Positions 5,444 through 45,850 of a stretch of 64,000 bases of DNA are shown here, piece after piece. The notes under the pieces were generated by a model. That model ran no database searches and was not told where the DNA came from. It saw only the letters and a program-made list of their open reading frames with translations. Source of the stretch: Somniosus microcephalus (lineage: Eukaryota); contig CM126202.1 of NCBI GenBank assembly GCA_052327205.1, forward strand, positions 105,028,001 to 105,092,000. Reading direction: 5' to 3'. The stretch's first letter is position 1. Every line of letters starts with the position of its first letter. The translations under genes and the position numbers were made by a program.

Positions 5444-6277
5444 CAATTATATGTGTTGACTTAGCTAATTTTAGCGTAAAAAAAAATAAAACATGCTGGA
5501 CAGAAAGTGCTAGCAGATTACTCGTCTTATGTTTAGCATACCTCTGACCCTACCTACCCATCCAACAATGCATTAACAAATGTTAGAAAAAAGTTCATGA
5601 TAGATTAGATACTGCCATTTTATGCTGATCTGGATATTAAGAAAAATCACTACATGTGTAAACTTTCTTTATATTTCAACTATCATAAATCTTGCCAGTG
5701 GTACATTGAACATAACAAACAAAACAATGTGTAGTGTAGTGGCGCTTCTTAGTTTCCAAACAGGCAGGCCACTGAGCTGTGGGGCCTTTAACAACGAGTA
5801 GACGCGTGTCGAAATAAAACGTTCCCAAACGTAGCTTTGTCTTTTAAACTGTTTACTATAACACTTAACAAACGGAATTACAAAGCAAACACGTATAAAC
5901 GAACACGGTCAAAAACTGTACTGCTCCAAACCTCACAGCTTCTGCCTCTTTCACCACGTGCAGTTTAAACTGTAAAATGGCTGCACCCATGTGTGGCTTA
6001 GGGACTGTTCCATTGTGGCAAGAATGAAGGGGGTGTCGGACTATACTACTGGAGCAAGAAAATAGGGGGTTTCTTAATACAATAAGTCGGTCAGGTAAAT
6101 TAACTGTATTATGCCATTTAGCCACTATTTTAAAGTATTTCCTTAAGCTTTTATGGCTCTTACATTCCGGCCCCTAATTGACTAGGCACATGAAGCATAT
6201 CAATTACTCAAACATTCTTAAGAGTCATAAACTAATGAGTTCAACATATTTACAATATAAATGTCCACTTTTTTCGT

Positions 6278-9200
6278 TCAGGAACCTTTCACGCTACTTC
6301 TTGTAGCAGGCAGAGCTTTGTGATCGGTCTTTCCAGGGTCGTGTAACCGTCTGCAAACAATGCATTCAGAGAGTATTTTTCTTATTACGGAATTAGCTCC
6401 TGGAATCCAGTATCTTTGTCTTAGCTTCGCAAGCACGTGATTCCTCCCACTGTGTCCAATACTCTGGTGTATATGCTGAAGAATGAGTGTAGCAACCCGG
6501 AGGTCCTTAGAAAGGATAGCAGGATGCTTGGCCTCCTCTGGCATAGCAGATTTGTTTAGTCTCCCTCCCACCCTCAGTACTCCATCTTGCAGTGTAGGGT
6601 CCAGCTTGTAGATATGACTACCTTTCTTGATTGGAGTATTTCGCTGTAGAGCTTCGATTTCTTCTGGGTATCTTTGTCTTTGACTGAAGCGAACTATCTC
6701 CTTCTCAGCCTTGGCCAAATCCTCCACGGTCAATGAATTCTTGCCCAATGTGGTCTTGTGCTGATGCATGTACTGCTGTAGAAGCATTCTCTGCTTATCA
6801 GGGTTACTTTCAGACTGACTGATAGTGGCTCGGTACTCTTTTCTCTTACCGCTCAGGTGTAGCAGCAACTCTTTCAACCTTAGAAACCATGCAACTGCTT
6901 TCCTCAACTGGTGCCATCCTGAGAAATGGTTAACAAGCTTGTTCACTGTGTCGAAGTTCTCTTTCGTATTTGAGATTTACTGTGACTGATCTCTTGACTT
7001 CGACGTCGTCTTCAGCAATCTGACTTGGCATATCTGGTCTTTCTGGCCATGATCTCTCTGTTTCCAGCAGATAACTTGGGCCTTGTATCCAAGTTTCGCT
7101 CCTCGTGAAGTTTTCAGCCTTCAATCCCCGTGAGGCTTGATCTGCTGGGTTTAATGAGGTGTTTACATACCTCCATTGAGATGGTTGTGTAGCTTCTCTA
7201 ATGGATGAGATTCTGTTTGCTACGAAGGTCTTGAAGCGTATCTTCTCATTCTCTATATACTTCAGCACCGTCGTGCTATCCGTCCAGAAGACAGATTCTT
7301 CTAATGGGAGCTGTAACTCTTTACGCATCACCTGGTCAACTTTAACTGCAACAACCGCTGCCGTCAATTCCAGTCTCGGGATGGTGACCTGCTTCAGCGG
7401 AGCCACCCTGGATTTCCCCATGAGGAAGGCACAATGTTTCTGGCCCTGTTGATTTGTCAGCAAGAGGTAAGTAGCCGTGCCATAGCCGTCCTCACTGGCG
7501 TCCGAGAAATGATGTAGTTGAGCCGTCCTTGTAACTCCAAAACTCGCGGGCTTGATGCATCTACTGACGTTGAAGCTAGAAAGTTGTTGCAAATCTGTCA
7601 GCCATCTGTGCCATCTCTGAGCTTGACCTTCTGGGATATCTTCATCCCATCCTCTCTTGTCTCTACACAGCTCTCGTAGCATCAGCTTCACCGGCAGAAT
7701 GAGTGGTGCCAGGAATCCGAGAGGGTCATAGATGGAACTGACCACGGAGAGAATCCCTCGTCTTGTGGATGGTCTTTCGTTCACCATTATCCTGAAGTTG
7801 AACGTGTCTGACTCGATGCACCATTGTACACCAAGAGCTCTCTCGATAGGAAGGACATCGTGGCTCAGGTCCAGATCTTTGACTTCAGTGGCTCTTTCCT
7901 TTTCTGGGATAGAAGCTAGAACTGCTCTGCTGTTGCTTATCCACTTAGTCAGATGGAATCCTCCATTCGAACACAGAGTTCTAAGGTCTCTTGACAGTGC
8001 GATGGCATCGTCTTCTGTTGACACGGACTTCAGACAGTCATCGACATAAAAGTTTCTGAAGATTGTCTCCACGGCCTCTGATGGTGCTTTGCCTTTGCCA
8101 TCTTCTGCAGTTTTTCTGAGAGCGTAGCTTGCACAGCTGGGAGATGATGTGGCTCCAAACAAGTGTACGGCCATTCTACATTCCACCATCGCTTGACTAA
8201 CGTCGCCATCTGGCCACCAAAGGAAACGCAGAAGATCAGCATCTTCATCAGGGATTCTGACTTGGTAGAACATTGATTCTATGTCTGCCATCATGGCAAC
8301 GAGCTCTTGTCTAAACCTAGTCAAGACGCCAATGAGGGTATTAGTAAGATCAGGACCTTGAAGCAGCTGGTCATTCAGTGAAGTTCCTTTGAATGAGGCG
8401 GCGCAGTCAAACACTACACGGATCTTTTTCTTCTTTGGGTGATACACCCCGTGATGAGGAATGTACCAGACCCTTCCATCGTCTCTGTTCAACTGTTCTT
8501 CGGGCACTTTTACAGCATAGCCTTTCGCTATGATGTTTCTCATGAAGTCTTTGTAGTCTTCGTGAAAGTCAGGGTTCTTGTTCAGCTTTCTCTTTAGACT
8601 GATGGCGCGTTGCTCTGCTATGCAGCGATTGTTCGGCATCTTCGCGGTCTGTCTTCTCAGTGGCAAACCAATGTGATAGTGGCCATCAATGAACTGTGTA
8701 GACCTTGTCATCAAATCCATGAACTGATGGTCTTCTTGTGACATCTCTGTCTTTTCCTCACAGCTGCGTTCTGAGAAGTCTGCGTTGAACTGCTGTATCA
8801 ACAGCTCTTCAATGCTTGCGATCGAGATGCGATTAACTGTGACATTTTGTCGTTCCTCCTTGTTCGACTTGTTGCCATCATCTCTCCTTACCGGTCCATT
8901 GACTACCCATCCAAGGGCTGTCCTGACGGCGTAGGGTCCGTCATCCTTGCTGTTTATCACCTGCCATGGCTCCATAGTTTTGTAGGCATTGGTTCCAATT
9001 AATAGGCCAATTTCTGCTTCAATGTATGGGAGACGCACCTTTTCTAGGTAAGGCCATCTATCCACATCCTTCTGCAGGGCTAGGTTCCCTATTCTAACAG
9101 GAATCTCCCTCTGTGTGAAAACATTAGGCAGGTCTATGAAGTCCTTCTCTTCAAGTCCACACACTTCTAGGTCTGACAGGATATAACTTTGCATTGCCTT

Positions 9201-12185
9201 CTCATGACCCATGGTGCGTAATAGGATTTCTGTTCTTCTGCCTCTAACGTTCAGCTGTCGCATGAGTGATTCTGTGCAGAACGTTGCTGAACTACCTGGA
9301 TCCATGAAGGCGTAAGTCTCCACAAGCTTCTCACTCCTCTTAGACTTGATCCTTACTGGTACGATGGCAAGAATACAATCACTGTCACCGGCCCCAGTAA
9401 GTCCACAAGTCTCTGGTTCTAGCGACACCAGAGCACTTGAAACAACCGTCTCGTCGGTATTGTTTTCTTCACTCTTCTTAGGGACTTGTTCTTCTTTCTG
9501 GATATGCAGCAGACTGGGATGTTTCCAAGTGCACTCTCTGCATGTTGTTCTTTGCTTACAGTTTCTACTCAGGTGCCCCTGAGAGAGACATCCAAAACAT
9601 AGGCCGTTGCACTTCAGGAATTCGATTCTGTCCTTATGTGGCTGTGCTTTGATGTCGCTGCAGAAATCCATGTATGATTCTTCTGGCAGAATAAGCATGG
9701 CTTCTGAAAGGCATCAGCAGACGTCCCTGTGCTGCTCCTTTTGGTAGAGGAGTTCTGGGGCCTTTCTTCCTCGGCCTGAGTGACGATAGTTGCAAAGCTG
9801 CTTCCCCTGGAACCACCTTTCCTGAGAGTCTTTGATTCAACAGGCTTGGCTTTCACTCTTCCATCAGTAGTCGGGCTGACATCCTGGATGTTTCCAAACA
9901 ATGGGTCCCTAGCAATTTTAGCCTGTTTGTCTATGAAATTCACTAAGTCTGCAAACCTGGCTCTACTTTTCCGTCTCTCCATTATCTCAAAGGCTGTTCT
10001 TCTCCATTGTTCTCTCATCCTGTAAGGAAGCTTAGAGATGATGATTCTCATAGTCGTAGGATTGTCCATCTCTTCCATGAATTCAACATCCTCCATGGTG
10101 TTGCGACATCCTATGAGGAAAAGAACGTATGCGTTCAATGCCTCTCCGTCCTCCGATCTGATCTGTGGCCACTTGGTAGCCTTTTCAATATATGCAGTGG
10201 CTATCTTCAGCTCGTTACCATAGTGCTCCTGCAGCAACTTCCTGGCTTCTATGTATCCCCGGTCCGGTCTCATGTGTTCACAGCTTCTGACCAGGTCTTG
10301 TGGTTTACCACTGGTGTACTGTCCCAGGTAGTACAACTTATCACTGCTGCTCTCTGTTTTGGAGTCAATGGCTTGTTCAAAGGATCTGATGAAGGGCTTA
10401 TACTTGAGTGGGTCGCCTTGGAACACTGGTATGTCTCTTTGAGGGAGTCAAAACAGATTCTGTTGTTTTACAAGCATCTCTGTAATTTCGTTCTGACGTT
10501 GCATCACTCGGTATAGGCTTCTCCCTGTGTCTTCAGGCCTCTGGTGGTCATCAGCAGGGTCTAGTCTAGACCGTCTGGGGTAGCATCACGTGCTCCTGTT
10601 AGTGGAGAGGCCACTCTTCCACGCTGTAATGCCAGGGGATTGCCTTCGGGCTCTGTTGTAACTCTTGAAGGTGCCCTGGATCCAACTCTATGTGACAACG
10701 TTGACTGGCAGTGGCTCCCGCCATCCCGTGAGCCTTCATAATCTTCGTACGCACTCAACCTGGCGTCTGAGACCTCGATAGCTGTTTTTACCTCCAGCTG
10801 TTCTTTCTTTGCCTGCACCTGGGCCCGTTGGGCCTGCAGTTGGGCCTCTTGGACCTGCAGTCGGGCCTCTTCCCATTCAAGAGCTTGCTTCTCCGCTAAA
10901 GATGCTGCGCGCGCCATCAACGCCGCCCGTTCAGCCTCCGCTCTCATGCGTCGCGACGAGCTTGTGGTGGAAGCGACTGACCTGCGTCCAGAAACAGAGC
11001 TACCTTCTTTTCGACTTTTGCTCGGTCTGGCGGAAGTCTCTGAAATGCTATCGTCTGGTCCGACTTCATCGTCAACTTTATCTTTCTCTGCTGTATCAGC
11101 ATCTTGACGAATCTTTAAAATCCACTGTTCCGTGGCCTTGATATAGTCCTTAATGCTGGTTGATTTAAGATCAAACCAGTTGTGCTGATCATCGTTTCCC
11201 TCTTCTTCAGACAGAAGTGCTAATACATCTTCATTGAGTACATTAAATTCTTCATGCAGCTTGGAGAAATCGTAATACATTATGGCCTAGAAATTGGGTT
11301 TTGGCGCAGCAACGGCTTTAGCGCCGGAAGTTAGTGCCGGAGCTAAGTCGCGCTGGTCGGGCCAAAAATTCACTACTTCTGCGCCCAAACGGCTGCCGGC
11401 GCTGCTGAAAGCTGTTAGCGCCTGAAAACTGGCGCTATGCGCTGAATTTCGGCGCTATTCCGGCGCTGCGGCGCCCGCTGCGGTGCGGCAGGTTCGGGAA
11501 GTGCAGGCCTCCTCCTTCCCTTAAGGAGGAGCTGCCTGCACCCGGCCGCGGCCCGCGATAATCTTATTAAAAATGAGCCCGGCACCTCGGACAAGTGCCG
11601 GGCTTGCTTCTGTTCCGGGGGGGGGGGGGGGGGGGAAGTCCGGGGAGTGAGCTGCGGCCAGGCGGGCGGCGGGAAAGCGGCCGGCCGCCGCGGGGCCTTT
11701 AATGCGCCGGCGCAAACTTGTGCAAGGCACCTCTGCCAGAACGTTGCTTGCGGCTGCCACGGGCGAGGCGGCCGCAAGTCAATTTCCCAGTTCGGGCGGG
11801 TTACCATGGCAACCGGGACGCTGCGCACACCGATGACGTCATCGGTGCCGGCGCAGCGCTACCGGTCTACCGCGGCGGAAGGGCCCCAGGCAATTTAGGC
11901 GCCGGCGCCAATTGCAGCGCTAGGCCCTCTAGCGCCGCAAAATCGGCGCTAAGGTCACTGAATTTCTAGGCCACTGTCTTCAGCTTTCTTAATATTAGCA
12001 TTATCTTCCATGAGACGATCAATTATCTTCATTTTTCCAGTTATCTGAGCTAATTTAGCCTTCCTTGCACCTATGCTTCTATGTAACTTCTCTTCCATTG
12101 CCTTTGGGGTGAGCTTTATTTCCCCCTTTTGGCCAGCAATCTTTCTGGCTGATGGAAGCTCCTGGCTCCGTAAGGCCTCGGCCAT
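6278..12185 (-). pseudogene. BEL/Pao gag-pol, disrupted by frameshifts, a MITE insertion and an IN deletion
   Basis: ORF pieces 11973-12185, 10561-11283, 9614-10426, 6930-9698 and 6278-6946. After CIVCRRL the sequence jumps to the terminal ERPITKLCLL motif in another frame. Confidence 0.9.
11284..11972. mobile_element. CpG-rich Harbinger-type MITE (689 bp) in BEL gag
   Basis: TIRs ggcctagaaatt / aatttctaggcc. Removing it restores the gag frame (...AEDS-I-MYYDF). Internal long G run and CRE palindrome. Confidence 0.88.
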
Positions 12186-12840
12186 TTTACCCGCAGCTCT
12201 TATTTAGCTTCTCAATAGAATGAACAAAGCAAGTAACAGTCACTGTACCTTCGCTTTCTTATATTGTCGTCTGGCTCCATGACCATTCATGTATACGTTC
12301 GCCGACGATTCCGTCCCTTCCTTCTTAGGGAGCAAGTTTTTGACTAATGTAGTGGCGCTTCTTAGTTTCCAAACAGGCAGGCCACTGAGCTGTGGGGCCT
12401 TTAACAACGAGTAGACGCGTGTCGAAATAAAACGTTCCCAAACGTAGCTTTGTCTTTTAAACTGTTTACTATAACACTTAACAAACGGAATTACAAAGCA
12501 AACACGTATAAACGAACACGGTCAAAAACTGTACTGCTCCAAACCTCACAGCTTCTGCCTCTTTCACCACGTGCAGTTTAAACTGTAAAATGGCTGCACC
12601 CATGTGTGGCTTAGGGACTGTTCCATTGTGGCAAGAATGAAGCGGGTGTCGGACTATACTACTGGAGCAAGAAAATAGGGGGTTTCTTAATACAATAAGT
12701 CGGTCAGGTAAATTAACTGTATTATGCCATTTAGCCACTATTTTAAAGTATTTCCTTAAGCTTTTATGGCTCTTACATGTAGTTATCCTTGGTTTTCAAA
12801 AAAAAATCTTCCACACAAGATACTCATCCTACTCATCCAA

Positions 12841-13299
12841 GGTGTCAGCCTTGCCTCAGACGGTAGCACTCTCGCCTCTGATTCAGAAGGTCATGGATTT
12901 AAGTCCCACTCCAGAGATTTGAGCACATAATCTAGGCTGGCACTTCAGTGCGGTACTGAGGGAATGCTACACTGTTGGAAGTGCCATTTTTAGATGAGGC
13001 GTTAAACCGAGGCTCTATCCAGCACTCAGATGAACATTAAAGATCCCATGGCACAATCTGAAGAAGAGCTGGGGCGTTCTCCTGGTATCCTGGCCAACAT
13101 TTATCCCTCAACCAACATCTAAAACAAATGATCTGCTCATTTAATTCTTTGCTGTTTGTGGGAGCTTGCTGTGCACAAATTGGCTGCCGCATTTTCTACG
13201 TTACAGCAGTGACTTCAAAAAGTTTTATTGGCTGTAAAGCACTTCGGGACGTCCTGAGGTTGTGAAAGGCACTATATAAATGCAAGTTCTTTCTTTCTT
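12841..13299 (+). mobile_element. Full-length SacSINE1-like Deu-SINE
   Basis: tRNA-derived head, Deu domain, L2-derived tail ending tatataaatgcaagttctttctttc. Confidence 0.85.
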
Positions 13300-27827: not shown

Positions 27828-28375
27828 AAGAGTAAGCCATTCAGCCCCTTGAGCCAGTTACGCCATTCAGTTAGGTCATGTCTAATCTGTATCGTAACGT
27901 CATTTACCCGTCTTGGTTCTGTAGTGTCCGTGTGTTGATAAAGACACTGAAGACAGGAGTTGGTTCATAGGTATTTACTAAGCAAAGTCTGGGGGGGGGG
28001 TTCTAACGGATATACACAATATACAGGCTTATATAGCCCGAGTGGCAATTACCGGCATTACAGCACACCTGGGGCTCTTAAAGGCACATACACCACAATT
28101 CCTCCCCTTTTAGCTAACCAGTACATCATATTTTAAGTAATTATTAATTACATGTTATAAGCAAAATAATATACATTGCTGTAGTTAATTAATTATAAAT
28201 TAGTCTCTCGGGAGGCTTCCTGACTCGGTCCGGATAACGCCTCGGGGGTGTAGTAGTTTCTGGTGGTGTAGTAGGTTCTTCTGGCAAGGCTGATTCGGCT
28301 TGAATGCCAATGTCGGGTTCATTGGGTTCCAGTATCACCGGATCGGAGGTAGATATGGGTATCTCTACTTCATCG

Positions 28376-31300
28376 TTAGATGTATAGAGTTGTGGTGTAG
28401 GTTGTCCCTTTTCGGATGACTATGATTTGGTCAGCATGGCGCCTTATTATGCTTTCTCCAATGTCCACGGTATACATCAGTGGTCCTAGTCGTGTGCAGA
28501 TAGTTCCAGGCTGCCATTTCTCGGTACGGTAGTCCCGGGCCAAAACCTGTTGACCTATCTGGAAGGCCCTAGTAGGCCTTTCATTCATGCCTTGAAACTG
28601 CCGGTTCTCCACGTCCCTTCTGATGTTGGGCTTGACCAAATCCAGCCGGCATCTTAGGTTTCTATTGAAGAACATCATGGCGGGAGTTTGGTTGGTAACC
28701 ATATGTGTTGCATTCCTGTATGCGAATAAGAAGTTATCCACCTTGTGCTGAAGTTTTATGTCTTCATTACCCATGGCCTTTATGGCCTTCTTGAAGGTCT
28801 GGACAAACCTTTCAGCCAATCCATTGGTGGCGGGATGGTATGGGGCGGACGTGTAGTGCTTAACCCCATTGTTTTTTAAGAACTTTCTGAATTCTCTGGA
28901 CACAAATTGCGGTCCATTATCAGAACATATCTGTTCCGGCAGCCCATTCCTGGCAAATATGGTCCTTAATACTGTGATGGTTTTTTCCGTGGTGGTGGAG
29001 GACATCTTTATTACCTCCGGCCACTTGGAGTGTGCATCAACCGCGATTAAGAACATTGAGTCCATAAATGGACCAGCAAAGTCGATGTGCACCCTTTGCC
29101 AGGGAGATGAGGGCCACTCCCATGGATGTAGAGGGGCTTGTGGTGGAGCGTTTTGGACCTTCTGGCATCCTAGGCAGCTCTTGGTCATTTCTTCGATGTC
29201 TCCATCGATACCTGGCCACCATACAAACGCCCTAGCTAGGTTCTTCATTTTCACTCCACCCAGATGCCCCTCGTGAAGCTCCTTTAGCACTTTATCCTGG
29301 AGTTTGGGTGGAATCACCACTCTGGATCCACACATCAAGGTTCCTCGGCACACTGACAGCTGTTCTCTTCTTTGCGAGAATGCTGGCAACAGTGGTTCGC
29401 CATGTGCTGGCCATCCCTTCACTGTTAAATCGTAGACCCGTGAGAGAGTCGGGTCATTTCTCGTCTCCCTTTCAATGGCAGAATTTGTCACTGGTAAACA
29501 TTCCACTATGGTAGAGTGGAACATCTCTACTGGGTCTACTGTAGGTGCCTCTTCTACCGTTGGCAACGGTAGGCGCGATAAATCGTCAGCATTCCCATGC
29601 TGTTTTGACCCTTTGTATTCTATGTTGTATTGGTGTGCCCCTAGAAAAAGGGACCACCTCTGTAGCCTTTGTGCTGTCATAATGGGAACACCTTTTTTAG
29701 GGTTGAATATGGAGATGAGGGGTTGATGGTCAGTCAACAAGGTAAATTTTTGTCCGTGTAGGTAATGGTTGAATTTCTTCACTCCCCATACCAGGCTGAG
29801 TGCTTCCCTGTCGATTTGGGCATAGTTACGCTCAGCTGAGTTTAATGAGCGTGACGCAAAAGCTATCGGCCGTTCTGAGCCATCAGGGAATTTATGGGAT
29901 AATACTGCTCCTATGCCATAAGGGGATGCATCGCACGCCAGTCTGATTGGCAGTGATGGGTTGTAATGAGCCAAAACTTCTTCGGATGTGATTAAGTCTT
30001 TGCATTTATGGAAGGCACATTTACAGTCTTCGCTCCATTTCCAAATCACTCCTGTTTGTAGAAGTTCATTAAGAGGGTGTAGAAGAGTTGATAAGTTCGG
30101 TAAAAATTTATGATAGTAATTTATTAATCCCAGGAACGACCTTAATTGTGAAACATTTTCAGGTGCTGGGGCTTTTATAACCGCTTCAATTTTTTCAGGT
30201 GACTTATGCAACCCTTCATTATTAATTATGTGGCCACAATATGATATCTGATTTTGGAAAAATTCGCACTTGGGGCGATTCGCTCGTAGGCCCCGTTCTT
30301 TCAGCCTAGTGAGCACCTGCTCCAAATTGGCAAGGTGCTCGTTGTCTTTTTCTCCTGTTATAAGGATGTCGTCTAGGTAGCATTGAGTCACAGAATCACA
30401 GAAACCCCACAGTGCAGATAGAGGCCATTTCGGCCCATCGAGCCTGTCCGACACATATCCCACCCGATCCCCGTAACCCCTACACCAACACATATCCCAC
30501 CCTATCCCTGTAACCCCACGTATTTAATCCCCCTAACACTAAGGGTCAATTTATCATAGCCAATCAACCTAACCCGCACATCTTTGGACTGTGGGAGGAA
30601 ACCGGAGCACCCGGAGAAAACCCACGCAAACACGGGGAGAATGTGCAAACTCCACACAGACAGTCGCCCCAGGCCGGATTCGAACCCGGGTCTCTGGCGC
30701 TGTGAGACAACAGTGCTAACCACTATGCCACCGGAATCCCTTGCAGGATTTGCTCCATAGCTCTTTGCCAGATAGCTGGAGCTGATGCTACTCCAAAAAC
30801 CAGTCGATTGTACTGGTACAGGCCTTTGTGTGTGTTTATCGTGAGATACTTTTTAGAGGCCTCCTCAACCTCCATCTGTAGATATGCCTGTGCCAAGTCA
30901 ATTTTGGTGAAACGTTTCCCTCCGGATAGTGAGGCGAAAATATCTTCTATCCTCGGAAGAGGATACTGTACTGTGTGAAGGACCGGGTTTACAGTCACCT
31001 TGAAGTCACCACAGATGCGAATTTTTCTCTGTTCTTCAGATTTATCTTTATTCAATGCTTTTTTCATGACTGGAACGATGGGTGTTGCCCATTCGCTCCA
31101 ATCTATTTTGGATAATACGCCTGCTTTTTCCAAATTCTCCAGCTCTGCCTCGACTGCTGGACGTATTGCGTATGGCACTGGTCTTGCCTTAAAAAATTTG
31201 GGAATTGCTGCATCTTCCACTTTTATTGAGGCGGTGATGCCTTTCAAGGTTCCTAGTTTCTCTTGAAACACTTCTTTGGCGTTGGCCAAGATGTCTTTTA

Positions 31301-32514
31301 ATCGTTCAGGTATGATGTCATCATTGTTTTTTTCCTTACTGGTCACCGTCAGTGCCTGAATGGAGTGCCAGTCTAAACGTATCTTCCTGATCCATTCACG
31401 TCCCAACAACGGTGGACCACCATCTTGTAGAATGTATAAATACAACTTTTGTATTTCTTTGCCGTTGTATACAACAGGCACCCTTATTTTTCCTTTGGGG
31501 TATACTTTCTGCCCCGTATATGTTTTTAAGATAATGGATGTGTCTTTTAGAGGTATATGCGAAAATAGCCTCGTAATCCCGTCGATTTATTACGGTTAGA
31601 GCTGATCCTGTATCTAGCTCCATTTTAACTGGGGACCCTGCTATTGTGAGGGTAACCCAAATGGTTTGGTAATCATCTTTGGCAAGTACATTATGTAATT
31701 TGAGACAGCTTAGTCTCTTGTTTTCGAAGTCGCTATCGCTCTTCTGGTCTTCGGAGCTACTGTCCGTCATCATTTGTACCTTCCTGTACTTTTCCTTATT
31801 GATTTTTTTTTTTCTGTCAGTGGATTTATTTTGTCCAGATCGGCATACCCGTGCAATGTGTCCAATCTTCCCGCATTGCCTGCATGCTTTGTCCTTGAAC
31901 CAGCAGTCCCTCTGGTTATGGGTGGATCTGCCGCAGCGATAACATCTTTCGAAACCCTGTGTCATTTCATGGGTGCCGAAGTCCTGTGTCTTTTGTTGTA
32001 CCTCTGCAGCTCCTTTTGCTGCTGCTTTGTATGATACAGCCATACTGAAAGCTTTGTTCAATGTTAAATCTTTTTCAGAAAGCAGTCTTTTTTGTGTTCC
32101 TTCACTTAAGAGACCCCAAACGAATTTGTCTCGAAGATAATCTGATAGTCCTGCCCCGAATTGGCAGTACTTTGATAACTTTCTTAATTCGGTTAGGTAA
32201 TCAGCGTTACTTTCATTCTCGTGTTGATTTCTCTTGAAGAACTTGAATCGTTCCGCTATCAGCAGCGGTGTTGGGTTTAAGTGCTCCTGCAGGGTATCAA
32301 CAATTTCTTTAAAATTCTTGTCCTTTGGTTTGGCTGGAGTGATTAAATTTCGTAACAGCCCGTATGTCTTTGCGCCCATTAAGTTCAGAAGTACTGAAGC
32401 TTTTTTTTCATCTTCTATTCCATTTGCAGTGCAATATACCTCTACTCTTTCCACGTATGTGATCCAATCCTCTATTTCGCTATCAAAAGCATCAATATTA
32501 CCAGATTTAGGCAT
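28376..32514 (-). pseudogene. Gypsy gag-pol with a frameshift near 31560 and a SINE insertion
   Basis: ORFs 31396-32514, 30723-31481 and 28376-30388. Confidence 0.9.
30389..30732 (-). mobile_element. HE1-type V-SINE inserted in Gypsy RT
   Basis: tRNA head (tggcatagtggttagcactg...ggttcgaatcc), V domain (gggtgctccggtttcctcccacagtccaaagatgtgc), CR1-derived tail (ttctgtga)n. Confidence 0.9.
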
Positions 32515-33132
32515 TTCAGAAAAGATATGGCGCTTCCCGCGCTTTTTTTTCTTTTCTGTAGCAAAGATATGGCGCTTCCCACGCTTTCCCGCCGCTGCTG
32601 CCGATAACGTTGTTTACTGCGGTTTCCGTTCTCTTTTTTTTAATTTACTGTTGGAGACTTGTTCCCGCCGGAGGTCTGAACGCTGACCTGCTTCCCGCGC
32701 CGGCCGTCTCCCGAGTGCTCCCTCCCAGTCCGTTATTGCTTGCCTCCGATTTCGCTGCCTGTCTCAGCTGTAGAGCCAGCCGCTGGAGCCCCAGCCTGAC
32801 GCCCAGGAAGGATTAGCGCAGTACCTGCCACCAGCTTGGCCAGCTGGTGAAACCACAGCTTCTCTCACTTCCTTGAGTCTTCTGGACGCCCGAGGAATCG
32901 ATGTCCTTGAGGTGCTGCCGAATTGCAGGTAAGTCCGTTTCCACTTCGTCGCCACTGCAGTGTCCGTGTGTTGATAAAGACACTGAAGACAGGAGTTGGT
33001 TCATAGGGATTTACTAAGCAAAGTCTGGGGGGGGGTTCTAACGGATATACACAATATACAGGCTTATATAGCCCGAGTGGCAATTACCGGCATTACAGCA
33101 CACCTGGGGCTCTTAAAGGCACATACACCACA

Positions 33133-41375: not shown

Positions 41376-44300
41376 TGTAGGAATCGTCAAATTCCTAACT
41401 AATAACTGAGGTCGACTCAGGAGATCAAACAAACAGGTCTTTAATGTAAGACTAAACGAGTTCGAACCGTTTGTTGAGATCGATACAGGAGAACCACGAA
41501 AACAGGTCTTAACAAGATGGAGATTCCAGGAGGACTGCCTGGGCAGTCATGTGGTTTGCGACATGACGTCATCGCGTTTGCCCGCGTTTTCCCGCGCTCT
41601 TAAAGGGGCCACGCCCCGTACATACAAACACTATATACAAAACACAGTAATGTCTAACACAATGGTACCGGCTTAGGCTAATGGTAGAACATCGCTAAAC
41701 GGAATTATATACAGTTGCCCAGAGTCATTCAGTGGCTCCGCCACATGCGCCCCCCCAGAATTCGCTTTAACGGACAAAGTCAAACGGTGAGGGGGTCTGA
41801 TGAGCCTGTCAGAGCGACTCCTGTACTCCTGAGGCAGAGGCTGTTGGGCGGCTGGCGGTCTGGCGGGCGGTTGCACTTGGTCTGCTGTAACAGCGATGGG
41901 TGGCCGACCTCGTCTCAGCGGTTGTGCTGTCTCGACGGGGCGATCGAGGTCCAGATGTGCTGGCTTTAAGCGATCGACCGAAATGTGGTCCGGTTTACCA
42001 CCAACATCTACCATGAAGGTTTTGTCCCCTGCCTCCAACACACGGAAGGGACCAGTATATGGGGCCTTGAGTGGATCCCTATGAGCATCGTGGCGAATAA
42101 AGACGTACTCAGCCTTGTGAAGCTGGCCAGACGCGGACCATGGCTTTGTCGATGCTGGCAGGAAATCCCCCCGAGACTCGCAGCGGCTGACCGTACACCA
42201 GCTCCGCTGATGAAGAGTGAAGGTCTTCCTTGGGGGCCGTGCGAAGGCCCAACAGGACCCACGGTAGCTTGTCTGCCCATCCAGCGTCCTGGAGGCTGGA
42301 AGCGTTCACCGAGGCCATTCGCCTGTGGGTGGTAGGCCGTGGTGCAGTGCAACTTGACACTGAGTCCTTGGGCCACTGCATTCCAGAGTTCGGAGGAAAA
42401 CTGCGGTCCTCTGTCGGAAGAAATATCTGCGGGCACTCCGAAACGGGCGACCCAGGTGGAAATGAATGCCTTGGCCACGTCCGCCGAAGTAGTGGATGAC
42501 GGGAACCGCCTCCGGCCATCTGGTGGTGCGGTCAACCATGGTCAGGATGTGTGAAAAACCATGGGAGGGTGGGAGTGGTCCTACCAGGTCCACATTGACA
42601 TGGTCAAAACGTCGCTCCGGAACTGTGAATCTGGCCAACGGAGCTTTGACGTGGCGCTGTACTTTGGCCTTTTGGCAGACCACGCAGGTGTTGGCCCAGT
42701 CACGGACATCCTTGTGCATGCCATGCCATACGAATTTCGCTGACATCAGCTTCTGAGAGGCCTTCATTCCTGGGTATGACAACCCGTGTATGGCATCGAA
42801 CACTTTACGGCGCCAGACAACCAGCAGGACCGGGCGAGAGTCCCGTACGGAGATGTCACACAACAGCGTGGTACCTGCCGAATGGAACTTGACGTCAGCC
42901 AACCGGAGGCCAGTGACGGTCGTTCTGCAGGCTTGGACTTCTGGGTCTGAGGCTTGGTCCGCTGCCATGAGGACGTAATCGATGCCCAAATGAACTGTAT
43001 TGACGGTCGCGCGGGAGAGGCAGTCTGCCACCAGGTTGTCCTTACCGGCCACGTGCTGTATATCCGTGGTGAATTCGGATATGTAGGTCAGTTGATGTTG
43101 CTGTCGGGATGACCATGGTTCGGCGGTCTTGGCCATGGCAAAAGTTAGTGGCTTATGGTCCACAAAGGCGGTGAACGGACGTCCTTCCAGGAGGAAGCGA
43201 AAATGGCGGATGGCCAGAAAAAGGGCGAGCAACTCCCGGTCGAACGTGCTATATGCTCTCTCATTCCGCCGTAGTTGATGGCTGAAGAATGCCAACGGCT
43301 GCCATGTCCCGTTCACCCACTGCTCTTGCACGGCGCCGATTGCGTAGTCTGACGCGTCGGTGGTGAGGGCGATGGTGGCTCCTGGCAGCGGGTGCACCAG
43401 CTTGGTTGCGTTGGCTAAGGCGCTTTTGGTGTCGGCGAACGCTCGGGCCATGTCATCCGTCCAGTCTACTGGGTTCTTGCCAGTCTTGCCCTTGAGGGCC
43501 TCGTACAGGGGCTGCATGAGTAGTGCTGCCTTAGGCACGAAACGGTGGTAAAAGTTTACCATGCCTAGGAATTCCTGCAGGGCCTTAATGTTTTGCGGGC
43601 GTGGAAAGGATATCACCACCTCTACCTTCACTTGTAAAGGAACTGCTCCCTCTGTGGTGATGCGATGCCCCAGGAAATCAATTTGGTGCAGGCCAAACTG
43701 ACACTTGGCCGGGTTGATAATCAGGCCGTGTTGGCTCAGGCGTCGAAAAAGGGTGCGTAGGTGACAGATATGTTCCTCTTTAGTAGGACTGGCAATTAGA
43801 ATATCGTCCAGGTAGACGAAGAGGAACTTGAGGTCCCACAGCACAGAGTCCATCAGGCGTTGGAAAGCCTGGGCGGCGTTCTTTAACCCAAACGACATTC
43901 GCAAAAACTCGAAGAGGCCAAATGGGGCGATGACTGCGGTCTTTTGGACATCCTGTGGGTGCACTGGGACCTGGTGGTAGCCCCGTACGAGGTCGACTTT
44001 CGAGAAGACGGTGCTCCCTGCCAAATGGGCAGAGGAATCCTGGATGTGGGGGATCGGGTACCGATCAGGAGTGGTGGCGTTGTTTAGGCGTCGATAGTCG
44101 CTGTATGGTCGTCATCCGCCGCCAGGCTTCGGGACGATATGGAGGGGTGAAGACCAGGGACTATTCGACCGGCGAATAATCCCTAACCGTTCCATGGCTG
44201 CGAACTCCGCCTTTGCGACCGCCAGCTTGCCAGGTTCCAGGCGCCGGGCTCACGCGTTGACCGGGGGGCCGTTGGTGGTGATGTGGTGCTCAACACCATG

Positions 44301-45850
44301 TTTCGTGACTGTGGAGGAGAACGTGGGTCTTGTCAGGTCAGGAAATTCGGCGAGCAGACGAGCGAACTTGTCAGGAGTCGGGAAAGCACAGGCGACGGTG
44401 CACGATGTAGTGTTACTGCGGTAACAAGGGATAGAATTGAAAGTTTCTGCGTTGATCAACCACCGGTTTTTCACATCGACCAGGAGGCTGTTGGCCCACA
44501 GGAAATCTGTGCCAAGAATGGGCTGAGAAACCTTGGCCGTAACAAACTCCCAGTGAAAACGTTGCCCCCCGAAGCACACCTCCACTCGCCGTCTGCTGAA
44601 GGTCCGAATTGCTCCGCCATTGGCCGCTTCAAAGGCGAGGCCGTGATTCCCTGCCTGCACATCGAGGGCGGACGTGGGTAAAATGTTGCACTGCGCTCCA
44701 GTGTCGCACAGAAAACGACAACCGGAGAGCGTATCGGTGATGAAAAGCAACTTGCCCGCATTGCCGATTGCCATGGCGGACGCGGGGCGCCCGTTAGACC
44801 CGTTCCTCAGTAGTCGCGGTTGTTTTTTTGGGGGGAAAGCTGCAGGGAGGGCAGCAATGTCTCGCCTTCATGCCGAACTGCGCGTGGTAGAAACACAGCC
44901 CAGCAGGCTGACGAGCTGGGGCGGCGTCTGTGGGGGATGGGCGCCTCGTGGCGGTGCAGTACTGCTGCGTTACCACGAAAATTTTGTCCGCCTCTGCCGC
45001 GAGTGCCGAGCAGTCTTCCACCTCGGATCTGGCCAGGGCAGCTTGCACCTGCTCAGGCAGCTGGCTGAGGAATAGTTCACAGAAAAGGAAGCATTCCGGT
45101 TCTGAGCCCAGGAGTGTGAGCATTTGGCTCATCAACTCCGAAGGCTTGGAGTCCTCGAGCCCGGGCATAGCGAGCAATCGACGGGCGCGCTCCGATTTAA
45201 TGAGCCCGAAAACTTGCAGCAACCGCGCCTTAAGGGTTTCATACTTGCGCTCTGTTGGAGGGTTCTCGAGGAGGCTATTGATCCGCGAGGTGGTAGAGCC
45301 ATCGAGTGCGGAGACCACATAGAGATATTTGGTCTGATCCGCAACGATGTCCCTCAGGGCGAACTGGGCCTCGACCTGAATGAACCAAGAGGTCGCTTGC
45401 TGCTCCCAGAACTGCGGTAGGTTCAGCGAAACGGCGTTGGCCTCCATGTTGTGTTCTTTTTGCGAAAAACGTTCACAAAAAACGGGGTCACCAATGTAGG
45501 AATCCTAACTAATAACTGAGGTCAACTCAGGAGATCAAACAAACAGCTCTTTAATGTAAGACTAAACGAGTTCGAACTGTTTGTTGAGATCAATACAGGA
45601 GAACCACGAAAACAGGTCTTAACAAGATGGAGATTCCACAAGGACTGCCTGGGCAGTCACGTGGTTTGCGATGTGACGTCATCGCATTTCCCGCATTTTC
45701 CCGCACTCTTAAAGGGGCCATGCCCTGTACATACAAACACTACAAAACACAGTAATGTCTAACACAATGGTACCGGCTTAGGCTGGTGTTAGAACATCGT
45801 TAAAGGGATTTATATACAGTTGCCCAGAGTCATTCAGTGGCTCCGCCACA
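41376..45850 (-). mobile_element. Ty3/Gypsy LTR retrotransposon, older, frameshifted
   Basis: LTRs 41376-41745 and 45495-45850 (several % diverged). PBS TGGTGACCCCG (tRNA-Trp-like). PPT GGGGGGGCGCA. Flanks CTAT / ATAT. Gag 44794-45447, PR CDTGA, RT YLDD with RNase H and IN at 42306-44024. Confidence 0.95.

What the first reader, a model, noticed from the sequence alone, without database searches (positions are those of the whole stretch)
12335..12530. BEL/Pao element with a Tf1-like self-priming signature instead of a tRNA PBS
Seen: on the element's sense (minus) strand the 5' LTR is followed by TTA-GTCAAAAACT, with no TGG-type tRNA PBS. The exact 10-nt complement AGTTTTTGAC lies inside the LTR (plus 12521-12530; also 5908-5917). 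It starts at the A of an initiator-like tacAGT, downstream of a TTTAAA (12577-12582) and upstream of the poly(A)-like AGTAAA (12465-12470). Known: S. pombe Tf1 primes reverse transcription by pairing the first 11 nt of its mRNA with the PBS, and this is described for the Tf1/sushi Gypsy lineage. Inference: this BEL family may prime without tRNA. I do not know of this being established for BEL/Pao; the literature should be checked.
Basis: partly seen in the sequence, partly recalled or inferred. Interest (0 to 1): 0.78.

Follow-up and report, generated by a model that had tools for sequence, protein, structure and literature searches.

The report
Jumping gene priming itself without tRNA
A young jumping gene lacks the usual tRNA landing site and carries there a short stretch complementary to its own end repeat, so it likely starts copying itself with a piece of its own RNA, a piece that many of its relatives would first have to build by splicing.

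Summary
Confirmed and extended. Window 5735-12777 (minus strand) is a young BEL/Pao element with 430-nt LTRs. It has no TGG site, and the 10 nt at the primer-binding position (12335-12344) are complementary to 12521-12530 in its LTR. Alone this is modest (1.6-2.5% by shuffle). A second 5-bp helix lowers that to 7 of 30,000. In related families both sides change together: 21 of 26 rows pair with their own LTR over 11 nt or more, against 4 of 642 cross-family pairs. In 20 of those 26 the match forms only across a GT-AG intron in the LTR, mostly with a canonical donor, which points to pairing in spliced RNA. This element is an intron-less form. The predicted start at 12530 is probably wrong; 12541 or upstream fits better, on weak RNA evidence. 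Cleavage and priming are inferred from Tf1, not shown. ICTV describes the family as tRNA-primed, and ten literature searches found no BEL/Pao self-priming; Repbase Reports were not searchable. The scan noted the splice-built primer before, in three findings on other DNA, read after my own result.

The parts
12348..12777 (-). 5' LTR, 430 nt, TG...CA
   Evidence: 1 difference from the 3' LTR
5735..6164 (-). 3' LTR, 430 nt
12778..12782 (-). 5-bp target site duplication (partner 5730-5734)
12345..12347 (-). 3-nt spacer between LTR end and primer-binding position
   Evidence: spacers of 0-4 nt in relatives
12335..12344 (-). primer-binding position, core 10 nt, no TGG
   Evidence: 2 of 390 cells vary in 39 copies
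12329..12333 (-). 3' arm of the second helix (12334 varies in 15 of 39 copies)
12521..12530 (-). core of the inferred self-primer inside the LTR; inferred cleavage after 12521
   Evidence: 3 of 390 cells vary; covariation in relatives
12536..12540 (-). 5' arm of the second helix
12541..12556 (-). likely zone of the transcript start (weak)
   Evidence: 7 molecule ends at 12541 in run X7, and sense depth rising across 12549-12522; TATA-like spacing
5908..5917 (-). 3' LTR copy of the primer core, from which new LTRs would inherit it
   Evidence: inference
12577..12582 (-). TATA-like hexamer
   Evidence: TATA-like words 42-53 nt upstream of the second helix in 4 of 4 intron-less families looked at
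12465..12470 (-). poly(A)-like hexamer, 50 nt after the primer core
6165..6175 (-). polypurine-tract-like segment before the 3' LTR
   Evidence: similar motif in many relatives
6278..12185 (-). gag-pol region, broken in this copy into several frames (DUF1759, protease, RT, RNase H/Peptidase_A17, integrase zinc finger)
11285..11974 (.). about 690-nt insertion with short terminal inverted repeats inside gag; not part of the priming system

Best explanation
This BEL/Pao retrotransposon has no tRNA-type primer site and carries a 10-nt segment plus a 5-bp second helix in its LTR that are complementary to the primer-binding position, and it likely primes minus-strand DNA synthesis with that piece of its own RNA. 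Shown: the complementarity, its conservation within the family, and its change on both sides across related families. Inferred: the transcript starts at or upstream of 12541; its 5' end folds back onto the primer-binding position; the RNA is cut after 12521, by analogy with Tf1 by the element's own RNase H; reverse transcriptase extends the new 3' end through the spacer into U5. Because the primer segment is cut off the 5' end, new LTRs would inherit it from the 3' LTR copy. In most scored relatives an LTR intron splits the primer core, so host splicing of the 5' copy would have to build the primer while the 3' copy stays unspliced and passes the intron on. This family likely descends from such an ancestor by copying a spliced 3' LTR.
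For: No TGG within 8 nt of the LTR end in 26 of 26 rows. Two Gypsy elements in the same window have TGG sites and best LTR matches of only 5 nt. Own-family match of 11 nt or more in 21 of 26 rows, cross-family in 4 of 642 pairs under the same rule. In 20 of 26 the best match spans a GT-AG gap of 75-426 nt; the search asked only for GT and AG, yet 12 donors are GTAAGT and 2 GTAAGC, and most acceptors follow pyrimidine tracts. Unspliced, these 20 reach only 6-9 nt. Six rows whose LTR end is fixed by 5'/3' LTR comparison all show it (10-15 nt). Three further loci with a whole LTR, found afterwards, gave it as the top hit (12, 11, 11 nt). L055 equals sister L054 with the 168-nt intron removed exactly at the predicted junction. 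The second helix scores higher within families than across (means 10.8 vs 7.0; 25 vs 588 pairs). Within the family, primer and PBS vary 0.5-0.8% against 3.0% elsewhere in 39 copies. Tf1 precedent: PMC7175516 (passages).
Against: No primer, cleavage product or cap site was observed. The window's own core is 10 nt, a length reached by 30 of 642 cross pairs under the permissive spliced rule. For 20 of 26 rows I placed the LTR end by eye knowing the pattern. The blind scan ranked the signature first in 20 of 53 loci and gave apparent chance top hits of 11-14 nt in 9 others. No compensatory change was seen within this family. No RNA read shows splicing in any relative; L055 could be an intron-less family or an assembly of spliced RNA. 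The host tRNA set obtained was only 4 distinct genes of 2 types. The tree is a quick search with a midpoint root and no tRNA-primed outgroup, so the direction 'intron lost' rests on parsimony. Rows are related, so p-values overstate independence.
Confidence: 0.85

Rival explanations
1. The duplex is a structural RNA element (packaging, dimerisation or translational control) that masks the site, and priming uses a host tRNA, half-tRNA or other small RNA at the same place.
For: ICTV describes the family as tRNA-primed (PMC8742986, whole text). Half-tRNA priming exists in Copia lineages (PMC6317226, passages). Only 4 host tRNA genes were tested.
Against: The site differs in nearly every family yet tracks its own LTR, so a host RNA would have to change with each family. 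No TGG in 26 of 26 rows. The window's primer would need five consecutive U, which ends RNA polymerase III transcription (established knowledge). Best match to the 4 tRNAs was 4-7 nt; Rfam gave no tRNA-like match in 11900-12900.
Confidence: 0.06
2. Self-encoded priming as strictly in Tf1: the transcript starts at 12530 and the primer is its first 10 nt; the second helix is incidental promoter sequence.
For: The core begins at a pyrimidine-A step like an initiator. The core is 11 nt in 14 of 26 rows, the Tf1 length.
Against: The second helix is conserved while the base beside it varies and covaries across families. In intron-bearing relatives exon 1 would then be only 3-10 nt long. Seven molecule ends lie at 12541.
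Confidence: 0.12
3. The primer is self-encoded but supplied in trans, from the partner genome, solo-LTR transcripts or short LTR RNAs, not by fold-back of the same molecule.
For: LTR-derived RNA is abundant on both strands in the related species. Sequence complementarity cannot tell cis from trans.
Against: Primer and site lie only 46-222 nt apart in most rows and fold together in one molecule. Tf1 uses its own 5' end. This changes the source of the primer, not the absence of tRNA.
Confidence: 0.1
4. Chance inverted repeat with no function.
For: The 10-mer alone has a 1.6-2.5% chance.
Against: Cross-family control, canonical donors, exact intron loss and within-family conservation.
Confidence: 0.01

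Closest known systems
Tf1/Tf2 of Schizosaccharomyces pombe, Tj1, and the Tf1/Sushi and Tcn1 chromoviruses (Ty3/Gypsy)
   Same: No tRNA site; about 11 nt of the element's own LTR RNA complementary to the primer-binding position next to the 5' LTR (PMC7175516, PMC4600332, PMC6317226; passages).
   Different: Different superfamily (BEL/Pao domains). The duplex is bipartite, with a second helix 5' of the core, so the core is probably not the first bases of the RNA. A spacer of 0-4 nt separates LTR and site. In relatives the core is split by an intron, which the passages read do not describe for Tf1.
TAR lineage of plant Ty1/Copia (Houba, Osr-1)
   Same: Self-priming predicted from sequence outside the Tf1/Sushi group (PMC6317226, passages), so the mechanism has arisen more than once.
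   Different: Copia, plants; no intron-split primer mentioned in the passages read.
Belpaoviridae (BEL/Pao) as defined by ICTV; probably the Sinbad/Sailor side (not tested against reference sequences)
   Same: Gag with three zinc knuckles, PR-RT-RH-IN order, Pao peptidase and DUF1759 families, TG...CA LTRs, 5-bp target duplication. Nearest proteins are from teleosts, bivalves and amphioxus.
   Different: ICTV gives an 18-nt site complementary to tRNA-Arg or tRNA-Gly and priming by host tRNA; this element has neither.

Membership tests
BEL/Pao (Belpaoviridae) | Pao-type Pol (Peptidase_A17, DUF1759) with PR-RT-RH-IN order | tested here: met
   PF05380 E 5.8e-49, PF03564 E 5e-9, integrase zinc finger downstream
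BEL/Pao (Belpaoviridae) | LTRs of 0.2-1.2 kb, genome 4-10 kb, polypurine tract | tested here: met
   430-nt LTRs, 7043-nt element
BEL/Pao (Belpaoviridae) | 18-nt PBS complementary to the 3' end of tRNA-Arg or tRNA-Gly (ICTV description) | tested here: not met
   no TGG. I read this as a gap in the description; membership rests on Pol
Sinbad/Sailor clade within BEL/Pao | RT/RNase H phylogeny with reference elements | not tested
   no named reference sequences obtained; only the third zinc-knuckle spacing and host range fit
Tf1-type self-priming (works like) | PBS next to the 5' LTR complementary to about 11 nt of the element's own LTR | tested here: met
Tf1-type self-priming (works like) | the complement is the first bases of the transcript | tested here: inconclusive
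   hints at 12541; searches point upstream of 12530; no cap data
Tf1-type self-priming (works like) | RNase H cleavage releases the primer and RT extends it | not testable with these tools
   needs biochemistry; RNase H acidic motifs appear present in the translation (motifs recalled)
Tf1/Sushi group (membership) | Ty3/Gypsy chromovirus Pol | tested here: not met
   Pao-type Pol

The most novel reading that the evidence does not exclude
A broad aquatic lineage of BEL/Pao elements primes reverse transcription with a primer that the host spliceosome assembles across an intron in the LTR. The intron survives replication because the spliced 5' copy is cut off as primer and new LTRs are templated from the unspliced 3' copy. 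This family, several fish-group families and at least one other lineage lost the intron by copying a spliced 3' LTR and now carry the primer ready-made.
Probability: 0.65. Interest if true: 0.9.

Novelty: new variant of a known kind. Interest (0 to 1): 0.8.

Why it matters
It would extend tRNA-independent priming to a third LTR superfamily, against the ICTV description of Belpaoviridae, and could explain why three BEL/Pao papers checked never mention a primer site. The splice-built form couples reverse transcription to host splicing and explains how an intron can persist in a retroelement's LTR. It also marks the 5' copy of the repeat as the only competent primer. The intron-less family here, with over a thousand candidate copies and near-identical LTRs, shows that splicing is dispensable once the junction is fixed in DNA. 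Intron-bearing and intron-less sisters make both the priming mode and intron loss directly testable. For annotation, the duplex gives a way to call LTR ends in elements that tRNA-based finders miss.

Tried and rejected
Sister BEL families in the own genome: two protein searches with distant queries returned, in all 40 loci fetched, only this family and its subfamilies (LTRs 88-99% alike), so no within-genome covariation test was possible. Viral contigs: two scans found no relative. Host tRNA set: the search gave 63 matches, and the 30 loci read held only 4 distinct genes, Cys and Lys; too narrow to exclude a tRNA fragment by itself. No RNA holder was listed for this stretch; the RNA runs laid come from a species label added by the tool. 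A finer look at the transcript start was not obtained. Run X8 looks unstranded inside the element and was not used for the start. Length of match alone in a blind scan was rejected as a criterion, because chance hits reached 14 nt. L094's top hit (11 nt, non-canonical donor, 450 nt away) is probably chance; its canonical match is 10 nt. An intron in the window's own LTR at the primer was rejected: no joints, and the segment is contiguous in 39 of 40 loci. Priming by the free exon 1 splicing intermediate was rejected because exon 2 supplies the 4-7 nt nearest the LTR end in all 20 spliced rows. The careful tree did not finish. PMC109269 and PMC6388632 were not held.

Full report
The element. 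Window 12777-5735 (minus strand) is an LTR retrotransposon of 7043 nt. Its LTRs are 430 nt, TG...CA, differ at one position, and are flanked by a 5-bp target duplication. Pfam gives Peptidase_A17, DUF1759, RVT_1 and an integrase zinc finger in BEL/Pao order. The best 120 of 2358 protein hits are 47-67% identical and, where named, come from teleosts, bivalves and amphioxus. The host genome is 6.4 Gb, and the first look of a DNA search gave 1579 candidates, 40 scored. I take the host to be a shark or ray by inference, as other scan notes do. This copy is broken by a 690-nt insertion in gag, frameshifts and a deletion in integrase.

The observation. Every coordinate is right. The 10-mer alone has a chance of 503 of 20,000 or 486 of 30,000, so it needed outside support. 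A second helix, 12540-12536 with 12333-12329, extends it; both together occur in 7 of 30,000 shuffles. In 39 of 40 family copies found by protein search, primer core and site vary in 3 and 2 of 390 cells and the helix arms in 2 and 0 of 195. The rest varies in 520 of 17,238 cells, and the unpaired base 12334 in 15 of 39 copies. No compensatory change occurs within the family.

Relatives. A scan of metagenome contigs with a 46-protein alignment kept 79 loci out of 539 confirmed stretches. I scored 25 of them plus the window and 3 more later. Five near-duplicates and one locus split over the contig ends were left out. The other 45 had no complete 5' LTR and site that I could place; ten of these were scanned and gave 5-9 nt. 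With the same rule for all pairs, a site matched its own LTR over 11 nt or more in 21 of 26 rows, and a non-sister LTR in 4 of 642 pairs. All 26 own matches were 9 nt or more. The sites differ from family to family, so both sides change together. None has TGG within 8 nt of the LTR end. Two Gypsy elements in the window do, and match their LTRs over 5 nt only. For six rows the LTR end is fixed independently by 5'/3' comparison, and all six show the duplex. For the other 20 I placed the end by eye. A blind scan ranked the signature first in 20 of 53 loci but also gave apparent chance hits of 11-14 nt in 9. The three later loci had it as top hit.

The intron. In 20 of the 26 rows the match exists only across a GT-AG gap of 75-426 nt inside the LTR; unspliced they reach 6-9 nt. 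The search required only GT and AG, yet 12 donors are GTAAGT and 2 GTAAGC, and most acceptors follow a pyrimidine tract. Exon 2 gives the 4-7 nt nearest the LTR end and exon 1 gives 3-10 nt. L055 matches its sister L054 with 168 nt missing exactly between the predicted donor and acceptor. A complement that exists only after splicing points to pairing in RNA. The second helix also covaries (means 10.8 vs 7.0, donor list chosen after seeing hits). In a quick tree of 50 RT-RNase H segments, intron-less rows are the window with L048 in a fish clade (support 99), L043 with L051 in another (97), and L055 beside L054. Intron-bearing rows occupy most other branches. Repeated loss is the simpler reading, but the root is a midpoint.

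Transcript start. No cap data exist here. In run X7, from a species label added by the tool and stranded inside the element, sense depth rises from 7 to 22 to 29 across 12577-12494, and 7 molecule ends lie at 12541. This is one run and could include duplicates. With the second helix and the exon 1 constraint, it puts the start at or upstream of 12541 rather than 12530. No splice joint was seen in this family's LTR.

Mechanism. Shown: complementarity, conservation, covariation, splice-site-like ends, one exact intron loss. Inferred: fold-back of the 5' end, a cut after 12521, and extension into U5. Tf1 does this by RNase H cleavage after base 11 (PMC7175516, passages). Strong-stop DNA would then lack everything upstream of the cut, so new LTRs take that part from the 3' copy. 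This would keep an intron if the 3' copy is not spliced and lose it if it is. Cap-proximal splicing could explain the asymmetry (established knowledge, untested here).

Literature. ICTV (PMC8742986, whole text) describes a tRNA-Arg or tRNA-Gly site and priming by host tRNA. The Sinbad paper and two BEL/Pao surveys have no occurrence of 'PBS' in their main text (PMC554778, PMC3118150, PMC6238403; term counts and passages; supplements not read). Self-priming is given for Tf1/Sushi, Tcn1 and Copia TAR (PMC6317226, PMC4600332; passages). Passages of PMC3601003, PMC6934838 and PMC8672886 added nothing on BEL priming. Ten searches (listings only) found no BEL/Pao self-priming and no splice-built primer. 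Repbase Reports and most subscription papers are not held, so a prior mention there cannot be excluded. Three earlier scan notes report the splice-built primer on other DNA. I read them; they are unchecked AI notes and are not counted as support.

Verdict. The feature is real and most likely a self-priming site (0.85). It is a new variant of a known mechanism in a superfamily described as tRNA-primed, and this element is the intron-less form of a primer that most scored relatives would build by splicing. Interest 0.8.

Noticed in passing
window 11285-11974: About 690-nt GC-rich insertion in gag with 12-nt terminal inverted repeats, a probable non-autonomous DNA transposon; no clear target duplication read.
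   Followed up: partly
window 6339/6340: This copy lacks about 900 nt of the integrase region relative to another copy; L032, L040, L129 and L139 also have shorter LTR-to-LTR distances, not checked for the same deletion.
   Followed up: partly
window 12678-12679: Sharp pile of read starts in both RNA runs (13 in X7, 90 in X8), antisense to the element if X7 is stranded; unexplained. A pyrimidine tract and CAG, like a splice acceptor, lie at 12680-12662 on the sense strand.
   Followed up: no
window 27919-33132 and 41393-45850: Two Gypsy-type LTR elements on the minus strand with TGG-type primer sites; used as controls.
   Followed up: partly
L077 and L076 LTR: Two acceptors each followed by the same primer-completing bases (75-nt and longer intron), a possible duplicated or alternative acceptor.
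   Followed up: no
L049, L054, L055, L058, L061, L070, L082, L086, L088, L094: One tree clade (12 rows, support 100) has no spacer between LTR end and primer site in all 10 scored rows, while most others have 2-4 nt; this may mean different integrase end processing.
   Followed up: no
L126 (G000 C1) and L063, L088: Tandem elements that share one LTR.
   Followed up: no
G000 C24, about 42.9-43.16 Mb: Tandem array of tRNA genes with a period near 1.59 kb, Cys in the loci read.
   Followed up: no
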